64,000 nucleotides of DNA from Proteobacteria bacterium UBA6503. Its GTDB lineage: Bacteria; Pseudomonadota; Alphaproteobacteria; UBA1280; UBA6503. The position numbers and the translations under genes were made by a program. Numbering within the stretch: the stretch's first letter is position 1; each line of letters starts with the position of its first letter. The notes under the pieces were generated by a model, which was not told the origin of the DNA, made no database searches, and saw only the letters and a list, made by a program, of their open reading frames with translations. This document shows positions 2,188 through 12,402 of the stretch, one piece after another. The stretch is taken from the NCBI GenBank assembly GCA_002436405.1, contig DJLZ01000005.1, forward strand, positions 265,743-329,742. Reading direction: 5' to 3'.

Positions 2188-3126
2188 TTAAAAGCTAAAG
2201 CTTACCTGATAACCATAATGGTCAGTGTCAGGCGCGCGCAAAGCACTGGCTTTATGCACAGTTGCCTTTTGGGGCAACAGCACAAAGTCAAACGGTGCTA
2301 CGGGCAGCAGCTTAAGGCGTACGCCCAAAAGGCGGAACTCAGCCGGCAAGGTTGCTTTGGGCAACGATGCGAGCTTCAAACCTTGAGCTTTGCTCACTTT
2401 GCGCACATGAACATCCCACGGCACGTTGTTAAAGTCGCCGCCAACCACAATGGGGTAGGGCGTCTTCACATCGCAAATCAGGTCCGTAATCGCATTGCGC
2501 TTATCGGTCCGTTGCGGCGTAAACGGCGCATGAGGGTGCAAGTGAACAAAATGGAAGGTACCATTCGGGTGGTAAACCTCGTAGTGCACCATGCGCCCAT
2601 TGGCATCAGTCTTCACGTGCTTTAGCGGCACTTTTGACAATATAGCCATGCTATAACCCAACACACTGTCGGTAATGCGAACCACATATTGGTGCGGGTA
2701 CATACTTTTCAGCTGTGCAAAGGCCTTGCGCATTTTGTTGTTCACTTCACAAAGGGCGAGAACATCGGCCTTTTGCTTTTTCAGAAAATTCACCTGTGCG
2801 GTCACGTCTTTATTGTAGGTATAGACGTTCAGCAACAGCATATTGATGTTTGGCTTGTTGTTGGGGTTTCCTTTGGGCTTTTCAGCATTCACGAAAACCT
2901 TAAAAGCAGGCCAATGTTTTGCCAAGGGGGCAAGTTTACGGCGCCATTTGGGCTGATGGATACCAGCTTTATAGAGGCACATAAACAAAATACCACGCCA
3001 CGGCGTCATAAGGGCGATTGCGGTGAACAGCAGTAGCCAATAGGGCGAACCTGGCAGCGAGAGCACAAGGCCCAGCAACCAGATAACTGCGCAAACCAAC
3101 GACACACCCAAGCGGATGTAGTGCAT
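2188..3126 (-). CDS. Endonuclease/exonuclease/phosphatase (EEP) family protein with N-terminal TM helices
   Basis: 312 aa with a hydrophobic N-terminus. The C-terminal half has an EEP-like pattern (GGDFN, histidine-rich catalytic region). Confidence 0.5.
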   Translation of the reverse strand: MHYIRLGVSLVCAVIWLLGLVLSLPGSPYWLLLFTAIALMTPWRGILFMCLYKAGIHQPKWRRKLAPLAKHWPAFKVFVNAEKPKGNPNNKPNINMLLLNVYTYNKDVTAQVNFLKKQKADVLALCEVNNKMRKAFAQLKSMYPHQYVVRITDSVLGYSMAILSKVPLKHVKTDANGRMVHYEVYHPNGTFHFVHLHPHAPFTPQRTDKRNAITDLICDVKTPYPIVVGGDFNNVPWDVHVRKVSKAQGLKLASLPKATLPAEFRLLGVRLKLLPVAPFDFVLLPQKATVHKASALRAPDTDHYGYQVSFSF

Positions 3127-3369
3127 AGTTTCACCTTAGGTTAGAGGGAAAGAAAGAAAAGGATATAAGATAGTTGCTTTAAGCCTGAGGATACCTGAAT
3201 CCATGTTAAAGCCCAAGCCTAATCCCGAACATAAATAAAAAATCTTTTAGAATCACGAGCTTGTAAATACAAAGAAAATTAAAAAAAATGCAAAAAAATC
3301 AATTTTTTCCTTTGAAGTAGCGTAAAAACTACCTATCTTTAAAAGTACGAGAAATCTTTTCCGTAACAT

Positions 3370-3417
3370 CTTACTTTCTTTTTCCCTTTTCTTTTTTTTC
3401 CTCCAAGGAGAATACCT
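3370..3417 (+). promoter_or_regulatory. Polypyrimidine (CT-rich) 5' leader with AAGGAG RBS in front of the ClpP-fold gene
   Basis: The sequence cttactttctttttcccttttcttttttttcctccAAGGAG lies 7 nt upstream of the ATG at 3418. A near-identical architecture recurs at 4717-4773. Confidence 0.4.
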
Positions 3418-4524
3418 ATGTTTACTGATAACCTCCCGCAGCCGACGACGCTGGAAGAGGCCGAGAAGGCATTCACCGATGCGGTGAACGCTTACCACAT
3501 CACCATTCCCGATGATTCGCATGGTGGCCGTGGCTTCGCTCTTCCCTCGATCATGTTCAAGCACCGCATCCTGTACCTGCACGGTCCTGTTACCCAGGAA
3601 GCCGTTCAGGCGCTCTGCATGCAGCTGCACTACCTGTGCAGTGAACCGGTGCTCAAGCAGCCGAACCGTTCGCGTCGCATCACGCTGTACGTGAACAGCC
3701 CTGGTGGTCTGGTGGGTGAGGGTCTGACCCTTTTCTACTACCTCCGTCAGGCGGAAGAAATCACCCGTGAACCGGTCGCCACCGTCATCCAGACGATGGG
3801 CGCCTCCATGGGTTCGTTCCTCCCGCAGGCGGCTACGCCTGGTTACCGGCTGATGATGCCGTATTCGCAGATGATGATTCACTCGCTCTCGTACGGTGTA
3901 CAGGGCAAGCGTGAAGATCACACTCGTAGTGTGGGCCAGACCCGCAATATGATGGCTGCGATGTACGAAGTCTACGTCGACAAGATGGCTGAAGCGCGCG
4001 TGCTCTTCGGCGGCAAGGAAGACACCCCGGAACTCCGTGGTGAAATCCTTCGCTGGCTGTTCGAGCAGATGGAAGACGACGATGTTTTCATGTCGCCTCT
4101 CCAGACGCTCGATGCCGATCTGACCGACTTCGTCGTGCACTCCGAGGCCGAGCAGTTCGAGTACTACAAGGCACTCGACTGGTACCACGGTCTGTACAAG
4201 GAAGGCCCGAATCCGGAAGAACCCGGCAAGACGACCCTGATTCGTGCGGAAGCCGATCAGCAGTCTGGCCGTGTGACGCCGTTCGAGCTCAGCGATGCTG
4301 AGAAGGCCCGTGCCCTCGCCGAGATCAAGCGCTTGCGCAAGATCAACCGTGAGAAGACGGTCGCTTTCGAAGGTCGCCGTGCACCGATCGAAGCTGCTCT
4401 GGCTGCTCTCGATACGGTTCGTATCCAGGAAGGCACCGGCACCCGTAAGGGTAACGGTCCGGCCTATGATACGGCTATCGAAGCGTTCGAAGCCGCTCTG
4501 AAGGGTTCGTCCAAGAAGAGCTAA
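3418..4524 (+). CDS. ClpP-fold (S14-like) serine peptidase with about 170-aa C-terminal coiled/acidic extension; compositionally foreign
   Basis: The ClpP core is recognisable: LYVNSPGG..GL (compare INSPGG), a GASMGSF serine motif, and a MMIHSLS histidine motif. The CDS is GC-rich with CTG/CCG/CGT/ACC/ATC-biased codons, unlike the flanking genes. Confidence 0.6.
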   Translation: MFTDNLPQPTTLEEAEKAFTDAVNAYHITIPDDSHGGRGFALPSIMFKHRILYLHGPVTQEAVQALCMQLHYLCSEPVLKQPNRSRRITLYVNSPGGLVGEGLTLFYYLRQAEEITREPVATVIQTMGASMGSFLPQAATPGYRLMMPYSQMMIHSLSYGVQGKREDHTRSVGQTRNMMAAMYEVYVDKMAEARVLFGGKEDTPELRGEILRWLFEQMEDDDVFMSPLQTLDADLTDFVVHSEAEQFEYYKALDWYHGLYKEGPNPEEPGKTTLIRAEADQQSGRVTPFELSDAEKARALAEIKRLRKINREKTVAFEGRRAPIEAALAALDTVRIQEGTGTRKGNGPAYDTAIEAFEAALKGSSKKS

Positions 4525-4538
4525 TAGCGAAAACGGAA

Positions 4539-4569
4539 AGCCGCCCCATTAGGGGCGGCTTTCTTTTTG
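4539..4569 (+). terminator. Rho-independent terminator after the ClpP-fold gene
   Basis: agccgcccc-atta-ggggcggct followed by ttctttttg. Confidence 0.6.
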
Positions 4570-4716
4570 CCTAAATAGGGGGGATTTAAAGGGCTTAACC
4601 TAGTGCGGCATATGCATGGATTTTCGGAATAAATATCGAATTTAATTAAAGTTTTAGCCCAAAAAGGCTTGGTCAATTGGCTTGATTTGGGGTAATGTGT
4701 ATACCAATTGTGTAGA

Positions 4717-4773
4717 TTTTCTTCTTTTTCTTTTTTTCTTTCCTCTTTTTACTTACATGCCTAGGAGTTTCTT
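4717..4773 (+). promoter_or_regulatory. Second polypyrimidine leader with TAGGAG RBS in front of the acidic/vWA gene
   Basis: ttttcttctttttctttttttctttcctctttttacttacatgccTAGGAG, then ATG at 4774. Confidence 0.4.
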
Positions 4774-6564
4774 ATGGCAAATCCCAATCAAGAGGCACTG
4801 AACCAGGTGCGTGCGCTTTTGCGTGCGTATGTTCGGTTTGGCGCCAGTATCATGGTCGACACCGAAGGTGTCGTTCCTGCTGAACTGTACCTTGTGTTGC
4901 AGCAGGTCCTGGGTATCGAACCCGGCCAGCCGCTTCCCAAGGAAATCATGGACGTGCTTCATGCACACGCCAAGTCGCTTGCTCAAGTTGAGTCAAGCCT
5001 TTCCGAAATGGAACGCAAAGAGCTTGAAGCTTTCTGGAACCGCCTGAAGGCGGCCAAAAACCAGAAGCAGCTCGAAGCCGCCGAAGATACGAAAGCCGAT
5101 ATGAGCCCCAATGCTCAGAAGGCTGTCGATCTGCAGCGTCGTCTGCGCCAGAGCATTGCAACGCAATTGCTTGATGCGTGGAAGGCGAAGAATGATCCTG
5201 AAGAGTCCGAAGAGGACCAGCAGGACGAAGGCGGTGATGACGATCAGCACTCCGATGCTCAGGACATGGACGAACCCTCTGAAGACGAAGCCGACGGCCA
5301 AGATGGCGAAGGCGACGACGAAGGGGACGACAAGTCTGACGGCTCCGGCGGCGGCGAAGGTGATGACGATGGCGAAAGCGATGGTCAGGGCCAGGACGGC
5401 GACGGTGAAGGTGAACCTGGCGAAGGTCAGGGGCAACCCGGAGATGGCAAAGGCCAGCCCAGCGATGGGAAGGGTCAGCCTGGTGATGGCAAAGGCGAAC
5501 CTGGCGAAGGCCAAGGTGAAGCCGGCAAGGGTGAAGGTCAGGGGCAGCCCTCCGATGGTGAATACCAGGAGAGCAACGCTGCCGAAGACAAACAGCCCGG
5601 CCATGACGAATGGATGGAACAGCTCCAGAAGGAGCTGGAAGAGCAGGCGCAAGCCGAAGCTGAAGCCGAGGCTGAAGCCGAAGGTGAAGGCGACGGTGAC
5701 GGCGAAGGCGATGGTGAAGGCGATGGTAAGGGTGAAACCGATACCACCGACCCCAACCGTAGCAAGGATGTTGAAGGTGTCTTTGACCTTTCGAACCTTG
5801 TGCCCGACCCGGCAGACGTCAACGCTGCAAAGCAGGCTCTGTCTCGGATGATTGCAAAGGGTCTCGATAACCCCACGCAGCTTCCGCGCTGGAAACTTGG
5901 CGAGTTCGTCAAGCGCCAGACCACGCTTCGTAACCTGAAGGGTGCAAAAAAGCCTACGCTGGAACGGAAAGCGGTGATGTTCATCATCGATAACTCGCCC
6001 AGTATGGCTCACTTGCAGGCTCAGTCGCGCGCCCTTGCGGCCGCACTGTCCGCCACCGGTGGTCCCGCAGGGGCCGACGTTGTGGTTGCCCTCAGCTTTA
6101 ACGGTCACTACAGCGACTCCAAGCCCCTGACTGAGAAAAATCAGGATGGTGCGTGGTTCCTTAACGGGAAGCTGATGGGGCAGTTGCCGAAGCCCAGTAA
6201 GTCCAGCGGTGTTGATGAAAAACACCATGGTAACTGCTGGAAGTGGTTCATCCAAAAAGTCTTGCCCAAGTACAAGGTGAATGTCCATCTGATCGGCATT
6301 TACGGCGACTACGACGGGACCAAGGAATGGTGCTACATCTCGAACGAGATGAAAGGCATTCAGACCCTCTGGTTTAACCCGGAAAACAAGGAGCTGGAAG
6401 GCGTTCTCGAACGCAAAAACCCCAACTTCTCTGAACGTTTGGGTTCCAGCTACGGTTACGTCAAAGGTGACCGTCGCTTTGAGCTTTTCCGAGGCACGTT
6501 CTTCACGCAAGTGGATACTGTCCAGGATATTGCCCAGGCCCTTCGTAAGGTCGCAGGCGTATAA
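4774..6564 (+). CDS. Large acidic low-complexity protein with C-terminal vWA-like domain; compositionally foreign
   Basis: 596 aa. The N-terminus is helical, residues about 140-330 are D/E/G-rich heptad-like repeats (DGKGQPG units, EAEAEA, GDGEGD), and the C-terminal block VMFIIDNSPSM (DxSxS MIDAS-like) ... VVVALSF ... VHLIGIYGD fits a vWA fold. GC and codon usage match the upstream ClpP-fold gene. Confidence 0.5.
   Translation: MANPNQEALNQVRALLRAYVRFGASIMVDTEGVVPAELYLVLQQVLGIEPGQPLPKEIMDVLHAHAKSLAQVESSLSEMERKELEAFWNRLKAAKNQKQLEAAEDTKADMSPNAQKAVDLQRRLRQSIATQLLDAWKAKNDPEESEEDQQDEGGDDDQHSDAQDMDEPSEDEADGQDGEGDDEGDDKSDGSGGGEGDDDGESDGQGQDGDGEGEPGEGQGQPGDGKGQPSDGKGQPGDGKGEPGEGQGEAGKGEGQGQPSDGEYQESNAAEDKQPGHDEWMEQLQKELEEQAQAEAEAEAEAEGEGDGDGEGDGEGDGKGETDTTDPNRSKDVEGVFDLSNLVPDPADVNAAKQALSRMIAKGLDNPTQLPRWKLGEFVKRQTTLRNLKGAKKPTLERKAVMFIIDNSPSMAHLQAQSRALAAALSATGGPAGADVVVALSFNGHYSDSKPLTEKNQDGAWFLNGKLMGQLPKPSKSSGVDEKHHGNCWKWFIQKVLPKYKVNVHLIGIYGDYDGTKEWCYISNEMKGIQTLWFNPENKELEGVLERKNPNFSERLGSSYGYVKGDRRFELFRGTFFTQVDTVQDIAQALRKVAGV
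5408..5563 (+). repeat. Imperfect 21-bp tandem repeats encoding DGKGQPG-type heptads
   Basis: cagcccagcgatgggaagggt / cagcctggtgatggcaaaggc / gaacctggcgaaggccaaggt and related units in tandem. Confidence 0.6.
5653..5736 (+). repeat. 6-bp tandem repeats (gccgaa/gctgaa then ggYgaM) encoding (EA)n and (GD/GE)n
   Basis: Direct reading of the sequence. Confidence 0.6.
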
Positions 6565-6579
6565 ACCATTAACGACTAA

Positions 6580-6607
6580 GGCCCCCAGCAATGGGGGCCT
6601 TTTTTTG
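6580..6607 (+). terminator. Rho-independent terminator after the acidic/vWA gene
   Basis: ggccccc-agcaat-gggggcc followed by tttttttg. Confidence 0.6.
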
Positions 6608-6719
6608 TGCTTAAACCTTGGGAAGTCTAAAATTTAGGCAGTTTAGATAAATAAAATGATAAAAACCTCATTTTTGCTATTGCAATGCGGTGCGGTTTTG
6701 GCTAAAAATACATCTCGTT

Positions 6720-6795
6720 GCGGGTGTAGCTCAGTTGGTAGAGCGCAACCTTGCCATGGTTGAGGTCGAGAGTTCGAGTCTCTTCACCCGCTCCA
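6720..6795 (+). tRNA. tRNA-Gly (anticodon GCC)
   Basis: GCGGGTG acceptor stem with CACCCGC-T-CCA at the 3' end. The anticodon stem-loop caacc-TTGCCAT-ggttg gives anticodon GCC. The T arm has GTTCGAGTC. Confidence 0.9.
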
Positions 6796-6943: not shown

Positions 6944-9646
6944 ATGTCTAACTGGCTTCGGGTGCCAACCTTACAAGATCCTCGTCCGTATGCTGCATCC
7001 TTGCAGCTTTCTTTCCTTGTGATTGGCATGTACCTATTAGGCTTTAACCGCACATGGGGGCAGGTGCTGTTTATTGTGGGTGCTTGTATTGTGCTCGACT
7101 TTATTCTGCACTTTGTGATTCACCGTAAGCTGCTCTTTCCGTTTAGTGCGCTGCAAACAGGTTTGTCGCTCGCTATTCTAACCAGCTTTGGTTTGGGCTT
7201 ATGGTTGGCGCTGGTGCCTGTGTTTTTATCAATCCTTTCAAAGTATGTGGTCACCTACAAAGGTCGCCATATTTTTAACCCGTCACTGTTTGGTCTTGCC
7301 GCTACCATTTACTTTATGGGCGACCTTATTGCCGTAAGCCCTGCAAAGCAGTGGGATGGCAGCGTAGGGGTGCTAGTTTATATTTTGGCGGGCGCCATTA
7401 TTTTTGTAATGCCTAAGATTAAACGTACGGCGCTTGTGTTGTCGCTATTGGGATTCTTTGGGTTGCAGGTATTGGCCCGTGCATACTGGCTTACGCCTGA
7501 AATTCCGTTAGAGACGATCTTTTACGGCTTGTTCTTCTCGCCAGCGTTTTACTTGTTTGTGTTCTTCTTTTTGACTGACCCTGCCACAACGCCGAATGAC
7601 CCTAAAAAACAAGTGGCCATGACGGCGGCCATTGTTTTGATTGATACGCTATTCCATGCGTTTCAAATTCTATCGAGTGTATTTTACGCGGGCTTTATTT
7701 ACTTTGCGCTTCGTTGGTTATGGCTTGTGGCAAACGACGCCCTGAAAGAGCCTGATCTTAAACACCGCCTTAAACGCCTTGCCTTACCAGTGGCTGGGCC
7801 TGTTGTGGCCATGGCTGTGCTTGTAGGCTTAAGCTACGGGGTGCATGAGGCTGCAAAGGCGCACCTGCCAACCGTACAGGCTAACTTTAAGCTAGAACGC
7901 ATGTATGTAGGCATTGAGGGCCGTAAGGGCGACACCCTTGATCAGATTGACCCCCGTGCAAAACACATTGCTAAATGGCTGCTGGCTGCGGGCGAGGGTG
8001 TCAATGTTGTGGATGTAAACAACGATGGCCTGCTGGATGTATTCTTGACCCAAACGCAAAAGCGTGGGGCTGACCGTGTGCAGCTTTATATTGCTAAGGC
8101 CCCATTTGTGTATGAGCAGTTTGCTTTACCTCAGTTGCAGCGCTACCGTGAAAATGAAAAACAAAACGGAGTGCCTGCCGGTGCTATGTTCTTTGATGCA
8201 GATAACGACGGCGATAAAGACCTGCTGATTCTTGCCCTTTCGGGTAAGCCAATGTTTTTGCAAAATATGCTCACTGAAACGGGTGAGCTTGGCTTTACCG
8301 AAGCACCACTACCTGGTGATGCCGCAGGCCATCAAAATGCCGTTGCCGTTACTGCGGCTGACTTTGATAACAACGGCTACCTAGATGTGGTGTGGAGTAA
8401 TTACTTCCCTAAATACCATGAGGCTTACCCTGGCGCGCAGCGCTTACTGAATATCTTTAACCTACCTGAAGCTGAATATGAGGGCGATAACCGCCCACAG
8501 CATATTTTGTACAACAGCTGGGCTAATGCCACTAACGGTGGCCTAAGCCGTTATATGGCAGGTGGTGCAGGCGGCTTTGAAGATGTGGGCGACCCTTTTA
8601 ACCGCACCACTTGGACGCTAGCACTTGGTGCAGCTGACCTTAACAACGATGGCCTGCAAGATATTTACTTTGCCAATGATAACGGCCCAGACGACATGTT
8701 TATGCAAAAAGCCAGCGGTAAGTTTATCCGCCTTATTGGCCTTAACCGTAGCGGTGTGGGTCGTGATACTTATAAAGGGATGAATGTCTCGTTTGCGGAT
8801 TTTGATAAAAACGGCATGCCCGATATTTATGTTTCAAACATGCATGAACCTACACTTGTTGAAGGCAGCATGCTGTGGCTGAATAATACAAAAGAGGGCG
8901 AGTTTAACGGCAATGCCTTTACAAACTCAGCCAGTTCAAAAGGAACTTGGAACGAAAAGCGCTTTGGTTGGGGCGCTGGCGTGGGGGATTTAAACCTAGA
9001 TGGCCAACCTGATATTGTGCAAGCGAACGGCATGATTGATACAAACTATGACTCACCACTACTGTGCACCAGCTATTGGTATGCCTCAGGCCTACTTACG
9101 GGTGCCGTATCACAAGTATTACCGTATGCCGATAAATGGCCGTCAATGGTGGATAAATGCATGTTTGCCGGTGAAAAGAACCGTGTATACCTTAACGAAG
9201 GTGGTTACTTTGCTGATGTTGCAGATGAAGTAGGTTTTGCAACGCCTAATACAGCACGTGCCATTGCCTTAGCTGACCTTGATAACGATGGCGACCTTGA
9301 CGTTATTGTAGCGCATCCAACAGCTGCCCCAAGCTTTTATAAAAACACCCGTAATGAACCCATGGGGGATTGGCTTGGCGTAAAGCTTGTGGGTAATGGC
9401 CAAACCTGTAACAGCGATGCTGTGGGTACACGTGTGCACCTAACCTATGGCGGTGCAGACCCTGTAACGCTTGAACAGCGTGTATATGCTACGCAAGGAA
9501 TGTCAGCCCAAGGCGACCAGCGCCTACTGTTTGGCCTAAATGGCTACAGCGGCATGGTGAAGCTAAAAGTTGATTGGTGCGGGCAGGGGGCTGATGTAAC
9601 AACGGCCCAAGTTGCCTCGGGCCGTTATACAACTTTAAAGCAGTAG
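6944..9646 (+). CDS. Polytopic membrane protein fused to FG-GAP/VCBS-like Ca-binding repeats and ASPIC/UnbV-like C-terminus (CRTAC1 family-like)
   Basis: 900 aa. The N-terminal roughly 300 aa carry several predicted TM helices. Repeated Dx[ND]xDGxxD motifs follow (VNNDGLLDV, DADNDGDKDL, DFDNNGYLDV, DLNNDGLQDI, DFDKNGMPDI, DLNLDGQPDI, DLDNDGDLDV). The C-terminus has the VGTRVHLTYGG ... Q tail typical of ASPIC/UnbV. Confidence 0.6.
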   Translation: MSNWLRVPTLQDPRPYAASLQLSFLVIGMYLLGFNRTWGQVLFIVGACIVLDFILHFVIHRKLLFPFSALQTGLSLAILTSFGLGLWLALVPVFLSILSKYVVTYKGRHIFNPSLFGLAATIYFMGDLIAVSPAKQWDGSVGVLVYILAGAIIFVMPKIKRTALVLSLLGFFGLQVLARAYWLTPEIPLETIFYGLFFSPAFYLFVFFFLTDPATTPNDPKKQVAMTAAIVLIDTLFHAFQILSSVFYAGFIYFALRWLWLVANDALKEPDLKHRLKRLALPVAGPVVAMAVLVGLSYGVHEAAKAHLPTVQANFKLERMYVGIEGRKGDTLDQIDPRAKHIAKWLLAAGEGVNVVDVNNDGLLDVFLTQTQKRGADRVQLYIAKAPFVYEQFALPQLQRYRENEKQNGVPAGAMFFDADNDGDKDLLILALSGKPMFLQNMLTETGELGFTEAPLPGDAAGHQNAVAVTAADFDNNGYLDVVWSNYFPKYHEAYPGAQRLLNIFNLPEAEYEGDNRPQHILYNSWANATNGGLSRYMAGGAGGFEDVGDPFNRTTWTLALGAADLNNDGLQDIYFANDNGPDDMFMQKASGKFIRLIGLNRSGVGRDTYKGMNVSFADFDKNGMPDIYVSNMHEPTLVEGSMLWLNNTKEGEFNGNAFTNSASSKGTWNEKRFGWGAGVGDLNLDGQPDIVQANGMIDTNYDSPLLCTSYWYASGLLTGAVSQVLPYADKWPSMVDKCMFAGEKNRVYLNEGGYFADVADEVGFATPNTARAIALADLDNDGDLDVIVAHPTAAPSFYKNTRNEPMGDWLGVKLVGNGQTCNSDAVGTRVHLTYGGADPVTLEQRVYATQGMSAQGDQRLLFGLNGYSGMVKLKVDWCGQGADVTTAQVASGRYTTLKQ

Positions 9647-10309
9647 TTATTTCTTCAAGAAAAAGCGTGCAAGCAGCACAAATACCATCGTAATAACCAG
9701 TACAGGAAGCATGTGGAAAATAGCCACGTGCTCTGGCGTGTCGAGGTAGCAGAAGTATGAAGTAAATACAAAAGAAAGTGCTGTTGAAGCTAAAGCCGCT
9801 GAAAGGCCAATAACGTATGGGCGCACCGGAAAACTATCATGCAGCATCACAAACATAAGGACGGTCATTGCTGAAGCGGATGCCGTGAGCACGCTAGCAC
9901 AACCAACGTGGCCTGAGTATGCCTCTTTTAGAAGGGCTTCGGCCGAAATATCGTACACTGTGTAGCCAAGTGAAATAAACCAAAACACAAGTGCGCCGTA
10001 GCACATGGCTGCCCAAATACGGTGTTTTGCTGGGCTATCAGGGATACCCAGTTTAAAGCCACTATAGGCACATACAGCAGACATAAAGAGCAATACTACT
10101 GACTTTACAAGGAACACACCTTCGTAAAGTTTATTGTCTTCAGGGCGCACCCCAAGCAGTAGGATAATAAGGCTAATCAGAATAACTGAGGCGACAAACC
10201 AAATAGCCATGTTTTTACAAGGGCGCTTGCACTTTACAGGCTTAAGGCCATCGCACATAGCTGCGATGATAGAATCAGTCTTTTGTTGCTTTGTATCGTG
10301 TTTCGTCAT
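9647..10309 (-). CDS. nrsF: DUF1109-family membrane anti-sigma factor (NrsF-like)
   Basis: 220 aa. The N-terminal TDSIIAAMCDGLKPV is followed by six hydrophobic segments. It lies immediately downstream of, and is translationally coupled to, the ECF sigma gene, with a 1-nt gap. Confidence 0.6.
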   Translation of the reverse strand: MTKHDTKQQKTDSIIAAMCDGLKPVKCKRPCKNMAIWFVASVILISLIILLLGVRPEDNKLYEGVFLVKSVVLLFMSAVCAYSGFKLGIPDSPAKHRIWAAMCYGALVFWFISLGYTVYDISAEALLKEAYSGHVGCASVLTASASAMTVLMFVMLHDSFPVRPYVIGLSAALASTALSFVFTSYFCYLDTPEHVAIFHMLPVLVITMVFVLLARFFLKK

Positions 10310-12078: not shown

Positions 12079-12402
12079 ATGTTTAGTGAAATCACACCAT
12101 CAGACCTTAAAGAAAAGATTGCAAATAAGACTGAACTTCACCTGCTTGATGTTCGTGAAAGTGCTGAGCTTGATTTGGCTAAAATTGAAGACCACCCTTT
12201 GATTCACATCCCTCTAAACCAACTACCAGAACGCTACAAAGAACTACCTGCTGATGCTGAAATTACCATCATCTGTCGTTCAGGTGGCCGCTCAGGTCAG
12301 GCATGCCGTTACCTTGCCAGCATGGGCTACAAAGTGGTTAACTTAGAAGGGGGCATGCTTCGCTGGGCGAAGGACGTTGACCCTGAAATGGAAATTGAAT
12401 AA
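12079..12402 (+). CDS. Rhodanese-domain sulfurtransferase (single domain)
   Basis: 107 aa with the active-site loop CRSGGRSG. Confidence 0.8.
   Translation: MFSEITPSDLKEKIANKTELHLLDVRESAELDLAKIEDHPLIHIPLNQLPERYKELPADAEITIICRSGGRSGQACRYLASMGYKVVNLEGGMLRWAKDVDPEMEIE

What the first reader, a model, noticed from the sequence alone, without database searches (positions are those of the whole stretch)
3130..6610. Two-gene compositionally foreign island (ClpP-fold protease + acidic repeat/vWA protein) upstream of tRNA-Gly
Both CDSs (3418-4524 and 4774-6564) are visibly GC-rich. Hand counts of a few 60-nt stretches give roughly 55-60%, against about 40-47% in neighbouring genes. They use CTG/CCG/CGT/ACC/ATC/GGC codons that the surrounding genes avoid. 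The DNA between and around them is AT-rich, and the hairpin/T-run terminators are of exactly the host style seen elsewhere in the window (4539-4569, 6580-6607). Each gene has its own strong RBS, its own terminator and a peculiar CT-rich leader. No integrase, transposase or phage structural genes accompany them. A ClpP-fold serine protease with apparently intact Ser/His motifs, paired with a large disordered acidic protein ending in a vWA/MIDAS-like domain, is not an arrangement I can assign to a described system. Hypothesis (a): a conflict or effector pair with a vWA sensor/scaffold and a protease effector, reminiscent of vWA-associated protease modules in NTP-dependent conflict systems but lacking the MoxR ATPase. 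Hypothesis (b): a domesticated remnant of a phage prohead protease-scaffold fusion plus a vWA tail or decoration protein. Hypothesis (c): laterally acquired secreted or host-interaction factors. The island sits immediately 5' of tRNA-Gly(GCC), and tRNA loci are common integration hotspots.
Basis: partly seen in the sequence, partly recalled or inferred. Interest (0 to 1): 0.85.

Follow-up and report, generated by a model that had tools for sequence, protein, structure and literature searches.

The report
Codon-marked ClpP-like and MIDAS genes
The two GC-rich genes are not a foreign island: they are inherited, lineage-specific genes (a ClpP-family protease paralogue and the MIDAS partner of a MoxR-type ATPase) that share an unusual, conserved codon bias and a pyrimidine-rich leader, which suggests special co-regulation.

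Summary
A (3418-4524) and B (4774-6564) have GC3 of 0.71 and 0.62, against 0.44 ± 0.05 for 55 other window genes. Each has its own terminator and a CT-rich leader, and tRNA-Gly(GCC) follows B.

The "foreign island / protease+vWA pair" reading fails.
- No integrase, att repeats or phage relatives were found.
- Relatives keep A at the same gmk/EEP/PfkB locus, with or without B.
- In 7 other loci B follows a MoxR-type AAA_5 ATPase. B's linkage to tRNA-Gly and to NrsF…TolC is ancestral, so the A-B adjacency is a lineage-specific rearrangement.

A is a rare ClpP-family paralogue (10 clusters among 1.84 billion representatives). Its Ser-His-Asp triad is invariant, it has a ~125-aa C-terminal extension, and it sits behind a conserved σ32-like promoter. 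B has a helical domain, an acidic linker and a MIDAS/vWA domain closest to midasin's.

The composition signal is intrinsic. Orthologues of A and AAA5 (and of B in several lineages) exceed their hosts' GC3, avoid A-ending codons and show reduced dS with dN/dS of 0.1-0.25. In the window, the only intergenic polypyrimidine tracts lie directly upstream of exactly the three GC3-richest genes (EEP, A, B).

Best reading: vertically inherited, co-marked and probably stress-regulated genes under synonymous-site selection. Interest is moderate.

The parts
2188..3126 (-). EEP gene: membrane-anchored endonuclease/exonuclease/phosphatase-family protein (312 aa). It is transcribed divergently from A and is the third GC3 outlier in the window.
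   Evidence: Pfam Exo_endo_phos E = 1.2e-14. GC3 0.601, z = 3.2. It neighbours A in L007, L004 and L012 as well.
3143..3173 (-). Polypyrimidine (CU-rich) leader of EEP. It ends 17 nt before the start codon.
   Evidence: One of only three intergenic tracts in the 64-kb window with at least 27 of 30 pyrimidines. The same feature lies upstream of the EEP orthologues in L007 and L004.
3311..3338 (+). σ32 (RpoH)-like promoter of A: TTTGAA-N15-CCTATCT.
   Evidence: The pattern TTGAA-N15-16-CYTATNT occurs once in the window, with 0.15 matches expected by chance. In the fetched loci it occurs only upstream of A orthologues: L007, L011 and L017, and L020 by eye. The consensus CTTGAA-N15-16-CCTATAT / CTTGCC-N15-16-CCTATCT is quoted in PMC4843759. 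Function is inferred, not shown.
3366..3407 (+). Polypyrimidine (CU-rich) leader of A. It runs into the AAGGAG Shine-Dalgarno sequence, 11 nt before the ATG.
   Evidence: It is conserved in L007, L011 and L020. It is predicted to be unstructured, with z = 0.04, and matches no Rfam family.
3418..4524 (+). Gene A: a ClpP-family (S14) serine protease paralogue of 368 aa. The ClpP core spans roughly residues 28-240, with the triad Ser130/His155/Asp222. A family-specific C-terminal extension of about 125 aa (β-hairpin plus helices) follows.
   Evidence: Pfam CLP_protease 80.4 bits. PDB profile hits to ClpP at about 1e-24. Foldseek against ClpP gives TM 0.7-0.79 on the target. The triad is invariant in 13 sequences. 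The AF2 model has pLDDT 74.8. The family has 10 representative clusters.
4535..4570 (+). Intrinsic terminator of A: a 13-bp GC-rich stem followed by a T-run.
4669..4698 (+). Conserved putative promoter of B: TTGGTC-N18-TAATGT. This is a weak σ70 match.
   Evidence: Read from the sequence. It is conserved upstream of B in L007 and L015. It falls below the threshold of the consensus scan, so this is an inference only.
4713..4758 (+). Polypyrimidine (CU-rich) leader of B. It ends 16 nt before the ATG.
   Evidence: It is conserved upstream of B in L001, L003, L007, L008, L009, L013, L015 and L018.
4774..5208 (+). B N-terminal helical domain (aa 1-145).
   Evidence: AF2 pLDDT is 82-95 and the domain is all-helical. 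It is conserved across 15 homologues.
5209..5790 (+). B acidic D/E/G-rich disordered linker (aa ~146-339). It contains 21-nt (heptapeptide GQPGDGK-like) and 6-18-nt tandem repeats, and its length varies between orthologues.
   Evidence: pLDDT is below 50. Tandem repeats are shown. The alignment shows length variation.
5791..6564 (+). B C-terminal vWA/MIDAS domain (aa ~340-596). The MIDAS motif D406-N-S408-P-S410 lies at nt 5989-6003.
6578..6607 (+). Intrinsic terminator of B.
6720..6795 (+). tRNA-Gly(GCC). It has been the downstream neighbour of B since before the rearrangement and is not an integration site.
   Evidence: L015 carries AAA5-B-tRNA-Gly and L007 has the same arrangement as the window. 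No att-like repeat was found.

Best explanation
The region holds three independently transcribed, vertically inherited, lineage-specific genes of an uncultured, probably alphaproteobacterial clade. It is not an acquired island.

Gene A is a catalytically competent ClpP-family paralogue with a novel C-terminal extension. It sits behind a conserved σ32-type promoter, so it is most likely a stress- or heat-induced protease subunit.

Gene B is the MIDAS/vWA adaptor of a MoxR-class AAA_5 ATPase. Its layout is helical domain, acidic linker, MIDAS domain. This is a split version of the midasin/CobST/NorQD design. In such systems the ATPase remodels a client protein that the MIDAS domain holds through a metal-mediated contact.

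In the window's lineage a rearrangement separated B from its ATPase gene and placed it after A. The ATPase gene probably persists elsewhere in the genome.

The "foreign" composition is a gene-intrinsic signature maintained by selection. EEP, A and B, plus the AAA_5 gene in relatives, share two features. One is near-complete avoidance of A-ending codons with a preference for C/G-ending ones, opposite to the ribosomal-protein genes of the same organisms. The other is an unstructured polypyrimidine tract directly 5' of the Shine-Dalgarno sequence. I infer that these two features together set a common translational regime, so that this gene set is co-expressed under a particular physiological state.

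What is shown: the composition, synteny, domain identities, motif conservation and reduced dS. What is inferred: σ32 dependence, the translational role of the leader and codon bias, and any physical cooperation between A and the ATPase/MIDAS pair.
For: Not an island.
- The locus order fabF-mltG-gmk-EEP-A is conserved in L007. A stays at the gmk/PfkB locus in L011, L020, L004 and L012.
- Downstream of B, tRNA-Gly, NrsF, ECF σ, PCMT, rhodanese and TolC match L003, L009 and L015.
- The window also carries the other half of the ancestral locus, AAA28-GIDA-AbrB-uvrA-ssb-DUF502, at 38.8-46.2 kb, without AAA5-B.
- No att repeat exists.

B's partner.
- An AAA_5 gene lies immediately upstream of B in L001, L003, L008, L009, L013, L015 and L019.
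- The RI_95 MAG has A and AAA5-B about 63 kb apart on one contig.

Intrinsic signature.
- A's GC3 is 0.74 vs about 0.50 in L007, 0.73 vs about 0.47 in L011, 0.70 vs 0.39 in L020, and 0.95 vs about 0.72 in L004.
- AAA5 and B are elevated in L001, L008, L015 and L016.
- A-ending third positions are 0.07 in A vs 0.24 in the host. Ribosomal-protein and acpP genes follow the host pattern.
- The GC-rich stretch stops exactly at the CDS ends.
- dS is reduced relative to flanking genes of the same genome pairs, while dN/dS is 0.08-0.25.

Leader.
- The only three intergenic polypyrimidine tracts in 64 kb sit 11-17 nt upstream of the three top-GC3 genes. The chance that these are the same three genes is 3e-5.
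- The same tracts lie upstream of the orthologues across 172 kb of related loci.

σ32-like motif. It is unique in the window and conserved upstream of A orthologues.

Protein identities.
Against: - No expression data exist, so the σ32 promoter and the translational role of the leader and codon bias remain predictions.
- AAA5 and B show no GC3 excess in L003 and L009 although their leaders are present. The two marks are therefore separable and the codon bias is not universal.
- Between the window and L007, A is 67% identical while flanking genes are 86-93%. This hints at allelic replacement, meaning some lateral exchange within the clade. B's very low dS between the window and L007 (0.44) could likewise reflect recent recombination rather than codon selection.
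- The ATPase was not found in the 64-kb window. Its presence in this genome rests on L016, which comes from a different sample.
- Co-occurrence of A with AAA5-B could be checked directly in only one genome.
- The lineage assignment to Alphaproteobacteria rests on gene order and promoter type, not on a phylogeny.
Confidence: 0.6

Rival explanations
1. Recent horizontally acquired two-gene island integrated next to tRNA-Gly.
For: GC and GC3 are strong outliers. The genes use codons the host almost never uses, for example TCC at 1% of host Ser codons. A tRNA gene is adjacent.
Against: - Synteny is conserved in relatives down to 46% protein identity.
- B-tRNA-Gly is the ancestral arrangement.
- The island would lie 5' of the tRNA, with no att repeat and no integrase.
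- Intergenic DNA, terminators and leaders are host-style and are conserved with the orthologues.
- The GC3 excess tracks host GC in each lineage.
- For Arg, Gly, Ala, Glu and Asp, A uses the host's own preferred T/A-ending codons (CGT, GGT, GCT, GAA, GAT). This does not look like a GC-rich donor's profile.
Confidence: 0.03
2. Ancient acquisition, or repeated allelic replacement from GC-richer relatives, with incomplete amelioration. There would be no selection on codons.
For: The A gene tree is discordant with the flanking genes: window-L007 A is 67% identical against 86-93% for flanks, and the window allele groups with P0002 and lacks an 8-aa insert. GC-richer members of the clade exist, such as the RI_95 lineage.
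Against: - Even in the GC-richest lineage, A (GC3 0.95) and AAA5 (0.85) exceed their own genome (0.62-0.72), so no lineage looks like a neutral source.
- The excess is confined to CDSs.
- dS is reduced rather than increased.
- The same genes carry a conserved cis-leader.
Confidence: 0.12
3. A and B, with the MoxR ATPase, form one functional machine: a MIDAS/AAA+-coupled ClpP-like protease used for conflict, defence or dedicated protein quality control. This is a refined version of the first reader's hypothesis (a).
For: - A, AAA5 and B share the rare codon signature and the CU-leader.
- Both families are very rare and are confined to the same clade.
- One MAG has all three genes.
- In this lineage B came to lie next to A.
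- In mitochondria, loss of CLPP causes accumulation of the AAA_5+vWA protein VWA8 (PMC10743472), which is a loose analogy.
Against: - A is unlinked from AAA5-B in most lineages, for example 63 kb apart in RI_95.
- A and B have separate promoters and terminators.
- The leader and codon signature also mark unrelated genes: EEP, a DUF502 paralogue, a small TM protein and an Aas-like acyltransferase.
- PADLOC gives no hit.
- No evidence of physical interaction was obtained.
Confidence: 0.2
4. Domesticated phage remnant: a prohead protease/scaffold plus a vWA tail protein.
For: PHROG head-maturation-protease profiles hit A's ClpP core (phrog_94, 2.5e-21). The C-terminal helical extension superficially recalls protease-scaffold fusions.
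Against: - Cellular ClpP profiles score as well or better and cover more of the protein. NF045542 Clp_rel_HeadMat scores 48 bits against a cut-off of 120.
- No relatives exist in 2.9 million viral contigs.
- Phage genomes match only the core at under 30% identity, in jumbo-phage ClpPs. There is no match to the extension or to B.
- No capsid, portal or terminase neighbours appear in any locus.
Confidence: 0.03

Closest known systems
ClpP (MEROPS S14, Pfam PF00574) and ClpP paralogues such as ClpP1/ClpP2
   Same: Same fold, with an aligned Ser-His-Asp triad and the handle helix. The genomes also carry a canonical tig-clpP-clpX-lon cluster, so A is an extra paralogue, as in organisms with ClpP1/P2.
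   Different: - Only 25-29% identical to solved ClpPs.
- Far below equivalog cut-offs (70.6 vs 308.6 bits for TIGR00493).
- Has a family-specific N-terminal segment and a ~125-aa C-terminal extension with no detectable homologue.
- Is not next to clpX.
- Has a σ32-like promoter, a CU-leader and an aberrant codon usage.
- The family is extremely small (10 clusters).
MoxR-class AAA+ / vWA-MIDAS two-component remodelling systems (NorQ-NorD, CbbQ-CbbO, CobS-CobT, RavA-ViaA) and their fused eukaryotic counterpart midasin/Rea1 (also VWA8)
   Same: - In relatives an AAA_5 ATPase gene lies directly upstream of B.
- B has an acidic D/E-rich linker followed by a C-terminal MIDAS domain with DxSxS. This matches the layout of CobT, ChlD and midasin.
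- The best structural match is the midasin MIDAS domain, and NorD vWA is also hit.
- The ATPase profile weakly hits NorQ, CbbQ and midasin AAA domains.
   Different: - No Pfam or NCBIfam family claims B (VWA_2 E = 0.095; CobT only through the weak hit P0033).
- The ATPase's best NCBIfam hit is the "MadB family AAA-type ATPase" at 73-81 bits against a cut-off of 475. I could not find a description of that system.
- The client is unknown.
- In the window the ATPase gene is not adjacent and is not within 64 kb.
Gene sets with their own composition or codon bias inside alphaproteobacterial genomes (RcGTA-like gene transfer agent genes)
   Same: Vertically inherited genes whose GC or codon usage departs from the host because of selection tied to expression under a special condition (PMC7360931, PMC9765227).
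   Different: In GTAs the GC excess lies in codon positions 1 and 2, with GC3 not different. Their codon bias is toward abundant tRNAs. Here the signal is mainly GC3 and A-ending avoidance, runs opposite to the ribosomal-protein genes, and is coupled to a CU-rich leader. No GTA or phage genes are present.

Membership tests
ClpP family (Pfam PF00574 / MEROPS S14) | Profile match above the curated threshold | tested here: met
   CLP_protease 80.4 bits against a cut-off of 20.2, residues 41-189.
ClpP family (Pfam PF00574 / MEROPS S14) | Catalytic Ser-His-Asp triad at the aligned positions | tested here: met
   S130, H155 and D222 are invariant in 13 family members. They align to ClpP's GASMGS, MIHQP and RD..MS motifs.
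ClpP family (Pfam PF00574 / MEROPS S14) | ClpP α/β fold with handle helix | tested here: met
   Foldseek gives E about 3e-11 and TM 0.66-0.79 on the target over about 200 residues. The model's pLDDT is 74.8.
Housekeeping ClpP (TIGR00493 / PRK00277 equivalog) | Equivalog-level score and the tig-clpP-clpX context | tested here: not met
   70.6 bits against 308.6, and 80.8 against 249. The canonical tig-clpP-clpX-lon cluster is a separate locus in L004.
Housekeeping ClpP (TIGR00493 / PRK00277 equivalog) | Tetradecamer assembly and docking of ClpX/ClpA IGF/L loops | not testable with these tools
   This needs complex prediction or biochemistry.
Phage ClpP-related head maturation protease | NF045542 / PHROG match at family level, with capsid, portal or scaffold neighbours | tested here: not met
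   NF045542 scores 48 bits against a cut-off of 120. No viral-contig relatives exist. Phage hits are under 30% identity and cover the core only. No structural gene appears in any locus.
vWA/MIDAS domain | MIDAS motif DxSxS | tested here: met
   D406, S408 and S410 are invariant in 15 sequences.
vWA/MIDAS domain | Rossmann-like vWA fold | tested here: met
vWA/MIDAS domain | Pfam VWA profile above threshold | tested here: not met
   VWA_2 scores 13.8 bits against a cut-off of 27. The domain is too divergent for sequence profiles.
MoxR-vWA two-component system | Adjacent MoxR/AAA_5 ATPase gene with intact Walker A and B motifs | tested here: inconclusive
   This is met in 7 related loci. AAA_5 E-values reach 5.5e-16, and GPPGxGKS and DELDK are invariant. 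It is not met in the window: no AAA_5 homologue lies within 64 kb. An unlinked copy in a close lineage is suggested by L016.
MoxR-vWA two-component system | Membership of a named subfamily (CobST, NorQD, CbbQO, RavA-ViaA) | tested here: not met
   No CobT, CobS, CbbQ_C or ViaA profile reaches threshold. PDB profile hits to CobT, NorQ and CbbQ are marginal.
tRNA-associated genomic island | Integrase, att direct repeat of the tRNA 3' end, and absence from relatives | tested here: not met
   There is no integrase ORF and no repeat of the tRNA 3' end. The genes are present at syntenic positions in relatives.
Known anti-phage defence systems (PADLOC-DB v2) | A match of either protein to a defence-system model | tested here: not met
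   Zero families for both proteins at E ≤ 0.1.
RpoH (σ32) regulon, alphaproteobacterial type | Promoter CTTGAA-N15-16-CCTATAT or CTTGCC-N15-16-CCTATCT | tested here: met
   TTTGAA-N15-CCTATCT lies at 3311-3338. It is unique in the window, with 0.15 matches expected, and is conserved upstream of four orthologues. Actual RpoH dependence cannot be tested here.

The most novel reading that the evidence does not exclude
In this uncultured clade, a small set of scattered genes forms a translationally defined stress regulon. The set includes the ClpP-like protease A, a MoxR-type ATPase, its MIDAS partner B, a membrane EEP-family enzyme and a few others. The regulon would be written in two cis-codes. 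One is an unstructured CU-rich standby leader. The other is a coding sequence purged of A-ending codons, which are the codons that depend on U34 tRNAs. These proteins could then still be made when decoding of A-ending codons or normal initiation is compromised, for example under heat with σ32 induction. Within the regulon, the ClpP paralogue would work together with the MoxR/MIDAS pair as a new kind of AAA+/MIDAS-coupled protease.
Probability: 0.15. Interest if true: 0.8.

Novelty: new variant of a known kind. Interest (0 to 1): 0.5.

Why it matters
- It is a cautionary example for island detection. A very strong GC3 and codon-usage anomaly next to a tRNA gene can be an inherited, selected property of particular genes rather than evidence of transfer.
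- It defines two very rare protein families: a ClpP paralogue with a new C-terminal domain, and a midasin-like split MoxR/MIDAS pair. Both are confined to an uncultured proteobacterial clade.
- It shows that these genes carry a conserved dual signature, a CU-rich leader plus avoidance of A-ending codons, with reduced synonymous divergence. If this reflects condition-specific translational control, it would be a bacterial example of a codon-biased regulon that can be found from sequence alone. It would also suggest a functional connection between ClpP-type proteolysis and MoxR/MIDAS remodelling.

Tried and rejected
- PADLOC scan of both proteins: nothing.
- Viral-contig scan with the A family: none.
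- tblastn against 50,697 phage genomes: only the ClpP core of jumbo-phage ClpPs for A, and nothing for B's MIDAS domain.
- Scan of 185,579 species genomes with the A family: a single unclassified MAG.
- Metagenome scan with the extended A alignment: the derived pattern (ASMGS) was too generic. Only L020 and L021 were true members, both on short contigs.
- tblastn for the AAA_5 partner in the window: absent.
- Rfam on the leaders and on L016: no family.
- RNA-thermometer idea, with the CU tract sequestering the SD: folding gives no structure beyond shuffled controls, z from -1.5 to +1.1. It is not supported and not excluded.
- Profile and sequence searches of A's C-terminal extension and of B against solved structures: nothing beyond low-complexity hits and a marginal CobT match.
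- Literature search for the NCBIfam "MadB family AAA-type ATPase": no relevant paper found.
- The afdb50 fold library was unavailable.
- Cluster look-up of distant A-family members gave no sample information.
- GTA-like explanation of the GC excess: rejected as a direct analogue, because in GTAs the excess is in GC1 and GC2, not GC3.
- High-expression codon optimisation: rejected, because ribosomal-protein and acpP genes of close relatives show the opposite preferences.
- gBGC or regional mutational bias: rejected, because the GC-rich stretch stops at the CDS boundaries and intergenic GC is 0.31-0.38.

Full report
**1. What is in the sequence**

The window has GC 0.475. ORF A (3418-4524, 368 aa) has GC 0.588 and GC3 0.710. 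ORF B (4774-6564, 596 aa) has GC 0.568 and GC3 0.620. Fifty-five other ORFs in the window have GC3 0.439 ± 0.050, with a maximum of 0.521. A third outlier is the divergently transcribed gene at 2188-3126 (minus strand), which has GC3 0.601. It encodes a membrane-anchored Exo_endo_phos (EEP) protein.

The GC-rich stretches end exactly at the CDS boundaries. The three intergenic spacers have GC 0.31, 0.38 and 0.38. Terminators lie at 4535-4564 and 6578-6601. tRNA-Gly(GCC) lies at 6720-6795. CT-rich leaders lie at 3366-3407 and 4713-4758.

**2. What the proteins are**

*Protein A.* A matches Pfam CLP_protease (80.4 bits). Solved ClpPs match at about 1e-24 in a profile search, and Foldseek gives TM 0.7-0.79 on the target. 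Ser130, His155 and Asp222 align with the ClpP triad. They are invariant in 13 family members down to 30% identity.

A is far below the equivalog thresholds for housekeeping ClpP and for the phage ClpP-related head protease. It carries a C-terminal extension of about 125 residues, modelled with confidence as a β-hairpin plus three helices. That extension has no detectable relative.

An exhaustive HMM search of 1.84 billion representative proteins finds only 10 clusters of this full-length family. Scores then drop sharply from 205 to 110 bits into ordinary ClpPs.

*Protein B.* B has three parts:
- a conserved helical N-domain (aa 1-145);
- a disordered D/E/G-rich linker of variable length, with heptapeptide repeats;
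- a C-terminal domain with an invariant DxSxS MIDAS motif.

**3. Context in relatives**

Both families are found almost only in metagenomes.

*Locus of A.* A close relative (L007) has the same order: fabD-fabG-acpP-fabF-mltG-gmk-EEP-A-B-tRNA-Gly. In L011 and L020, A sits between gmk and PfkB without B. In L004 and L012 (MAG RI_95), A follows two EEP genes, again without B, and a canonical tig-clpP-clpX-lon cluster lies 5 kb away.

*Locus of B.* B is directly preceded by a MoxR-type AAA_5 ATPase gene of 350-398 aa in L001, L003, L008, L009, L013, L015 and L019. Its Walker A and B motifs are invariant.

L015 carries the closest B outside the window/L007 pair, and its order is AAA5-B-tRNA-Gly. 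L003 and L009 read uvrA-ssb-DUF502-AAA5-B-NrsF-ECFσ…PCMT-rhodanese-TolC.

*The rearrangement.* The window contains both halves of this arrangement:
- the left block (AAA28-GIDA-AbrB-uvrA-ssb-DUF502) at 38.8-46.2 kb;
- the right block (B-tRNA-Gly…NrsF-σ…PCMT-rhodanese-TolC) at 4.8-13.8 kb.

The ATPase is missing from both junctions and from the whole window. The A-B adjacency is therefore a derived rearrangement of the window/L007/L017 lineage. B's conserved partner is the ATPase, not A.

*Other linkage evidence.* The MAG RI_95 has A and AAA5-B about 63 kb apart on one contig. L016 shows a close AAA5 homologue (84% identical) that is not followed by B. This fits an unlinked ATPase gene in window-like genomes, but that is an inference.

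**4. The island hypothesis fails**

- There is no integrase or transposase.
- There is no repeat of the tRNA 3' end.
- The only repeats are inside B's linker.
- The genes lie 5' of the tRNA.
- PADLOC gives nothing.
- No viral-contig relatives exist.
- Phage genomes match only the ClpP core at under 30% identity and do not match B at all.

**5. What the composition signal really is**

*It is conserved in orthologues and scales with the host*.

| Locus | GC3 of A | GC3 of flanking genes |
|---|---|---|
| L007 | 0.74 | ~0.50 |
| L011 | 0.73 | ~0.47 |
| L020 | 0.70 | 0.39 (gmk) |
| L004 | 0.95 | ~0.72 |

AAA5 and B are elevated in L001, L008, L015 and L016, but not in L003 or L009.

*Codon detail in the window*.
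- The host nearly bans TCC (1% of Ser), GTC (3%), CTC (4%) and CCC (6%). It favours CTA, CCA, TCA, ACA, AAA and CAA.
- A uses CTC (42%), GTC (32%), TCG (50%) and CCG (65%).
- A uses AAG and CAG at 100%, TTC at 93% and ATC at 80%. It has no CTA, CCA, TCA or ACA.
- A nevertheless keeps the host-preferred CGT, GGT, GCT, GAA and GAT.
- A-ending third positions are 7% in A, 14% in B and 13% in EEP, against 24% in the host.

*Causes excluded by this pattern.*
- It is not a GC-rich donor's signature, because the host's own T/A-ending preferences are retained.
- It is not ordinary high-expression bias, because S6, S18, L9 and acpP of close relatives follow the host pattern.
- It is not a regional mutational effect, because it stops at the CDS ends.

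*Evolutionary rates*. Synonymous divergence is lower than in flanking genes of the same genome pairs.

| Genome pair | dS of flanking genes | dS of marked genes |
|---|---|---|
| window-L007 | 1.5-2.4 | A 1.02, B 0.44, EEP 1.15 |
| L011-L020 | gmk 0.91 | A 0.47 |
| L008-L013 | 2.0-3.3 | AAA5 0.80 |

dN/dS is 0.08-0.25 throughout. This indicates functional genes with constrained synonymous sites.

**6. A second, linked mark: the CU-rich leader**

A scan of both strands of the window for tracts with at least 27 of 30 pyrimidines finds four. One is antisense inside a CDS. The other three are the only intergenic ones, and they end 11-17 nt before the start codons of EEP, A and B, which are the three top-GC3 genes. 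The chance that these are the same three genes is 3e-5.

The same tracts precede the orthologues of A, B, AAA5 and EEP across 172 kb of related loci. There they also mark a few further GC3-high genes: a DUF502 paralogue, a small TM protein upstream of AAA5, and an Aas-like acyltransferase. The leaders are predicted to be unstructured and match no Rfam family.

**7. Promoters**

Upstream of A lies TTTGAA-N15-CCTATCT (3311-3338). It is the only match to TTGAA-N15-16-CYTATNT in the window, where 0.15 are expected by chance. In the fetched loci the motif occurs only upstream of A orthologues.

It fits the S. meliloti RpoH1/RpoH2 consensus CTTGAA-N15-16-CCTATAT / CTTGCC-N15-16-CCTATCT, as quoted in PMC4843759. 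A is therefore predicted to be a σ32-dependent, stress-induced gene. This is an inference.

B has a conserved but weak σ70-like element (4669-4698).

**8. Best explanation and how it probably works**

A is an extra ClpP-family protease subunit that is probably induced by heat or proteotoxic stress.

B with its AAA_5 ATPase is a split, midasin-like MoxR/MIDAS remodelling pair. By analogy with NorQD, CbbQO, CobST and Rea1 (established knowledge of those families), the MIDAS domain grips a client through a metal-mediated contact. The ATPase then supplies mechanical work through the N-domain and acidic linker. The client is unknown.

The shared CU-leader and the codon set free of A-ending codons most plausibly set a common translational regime for this gene set. 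The leader would act as an unstructured standby or S1-type enhancer. The codon set would make expression independent of, or tuned to, a particular tRNA or tRNA-modification state.

Shown: composition, synteny, motifs, folds and rates. Inferred: σ32 control, the translational mechanism, and any A-ATPase-B cooperation.

**9. Caveats**

- A is 67% identical between the window and L007, whose flanking genes are 86-93% identical. The window allele groups with P0002 and lacks an 8-aa insert. Allelic replacement within the clade, or rate acceleration, has therefore occurred.
- B's very low dS in that pair could partly reflect recombination.
- AAA5 and B lack the GC3 excess in two lineages.
- The GTA precedent for selected compositional bias is only a loose analogy, because in GTAs the excess is in GC1 and GC2.
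- The CLPP-VWA8 relation in mitochondria (PMC10743472) is an analogy, not evidence.
- The taxon is unclassified ("Proteobacteria bacterium RI_95"). Assignment to Alphaproteobacteria rests on gene order and promoter type, from my own knowledge.

**10. Verdict**

The island and two-gene-system interpretation is not supported. The domain calls and the MoxR intuition were right.

The proteins are new, very rare variants within known superfamilies. The surprising element is the conserved, gene-set-specific codon and leader signature. Interest is 0.5.

Noticed in passing
whole window (55 ORFs outside 2188-6564): The host genome has an extreme codon usage. TCC is 5 of about 894 Ser codons. GTC is 3%, CTC 4%, CCC 6%, GGA 2%, and AGA, AGG, CGA, CGG and ATA are each about 1-2%. 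This suggests a reduced tRNA set lacking G34 tRNAs for Leu, Val, Pro and Ser, which could not be checked.
   Followed up: partly
L016:1780-2121: In L016 the AAA5 gene is followed by a GC-rich, structured-looking stretch of about 275 bp and the start of an unrelated ORF (MGVGCGEKLLKV…), not by B. No Rfam family matches it.
   Followed up: partly
window 3418-4524 compared with L007:8238-9368: The A gene tree disagrees with the flanking genes. Window-L007 A is 67% identical while fabF, mltG and gmk are 86-93%. The window allele (368 aa, like P0002) lacks the 8-aa insert of the 376-aa type. This points to allelic replacement or strong acceleration.
   Followed up: partly
L001:7491-7527; L008:7464-7504; L013:7490-7527; L018:5018-5058 and 12139-12183; L003:14929-14963: Polypyrimidine leaders with raised GC3 and low A3 also mark other genes in relatives. 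These are a second DUF502 paralogue, a 222-233-aa TM protein just upstream of AAA5, an Aas-like acyltransferase/AMP-binding protein (GC3 0.85), and a 161-aa hypothetical.
   Followed up: partly
L018:7555-9471 (GCA_016125375.1, WGLU01000001.1, about 258.2-260.1 kb): In the public MAG annotation no gene is called where B lies. tblastn finds 55% identity to B over residues 263-596, and the identical Logan contig L019 has the 638-aa gene.
   Followed up: yes
L003:10001-10213: The called start of P0026 (599 aa) is probably too far upstream. The CU-leader lies at 10162-10200 and the alignment places the real start at 10214, giving 528 aa.
   Followed up: partly
window 6944-9646: A 900-aa protein fuses an N-terminal RnfD/NqrB-like membrane domain to FG-GAP repeats and an ASPIC/UnbV domain. 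It evolves fast: 70% identity to L007 against about 90% for neighbouring housekeeping genes.
   Followed up: no
window 5281-5736: B's acidic linker is built from imperfect tandem repeats, with a 21-nt unit of about 7 copies and 6, 12 and 18-nt units. Its length differs between close orthologues (596 vs 589 vs 567 aa), so it is prone to slippage.
   Followed up: yes
L008, L013 and L018 (rpoH-like gene at L008:5210-6061, minus strand): In the RI_95-type lineage the AAA5-B pair lies about 2.4 kb downstream of an RpoH-like σ factor gene (Sigma70_r2/r4, 283 aa). Only rluD and the small TM gene lie between them. This may be coincidental.
   Followed up: no
AAA5 proteins P0034 and P0044: Their best NCBIfam hit is NF047784 "MadB family AAA-type ATPase" (73-81 bits against a cut-off of 475). 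I could not find what the Mad system is in the paper library.
   Followed up: partly
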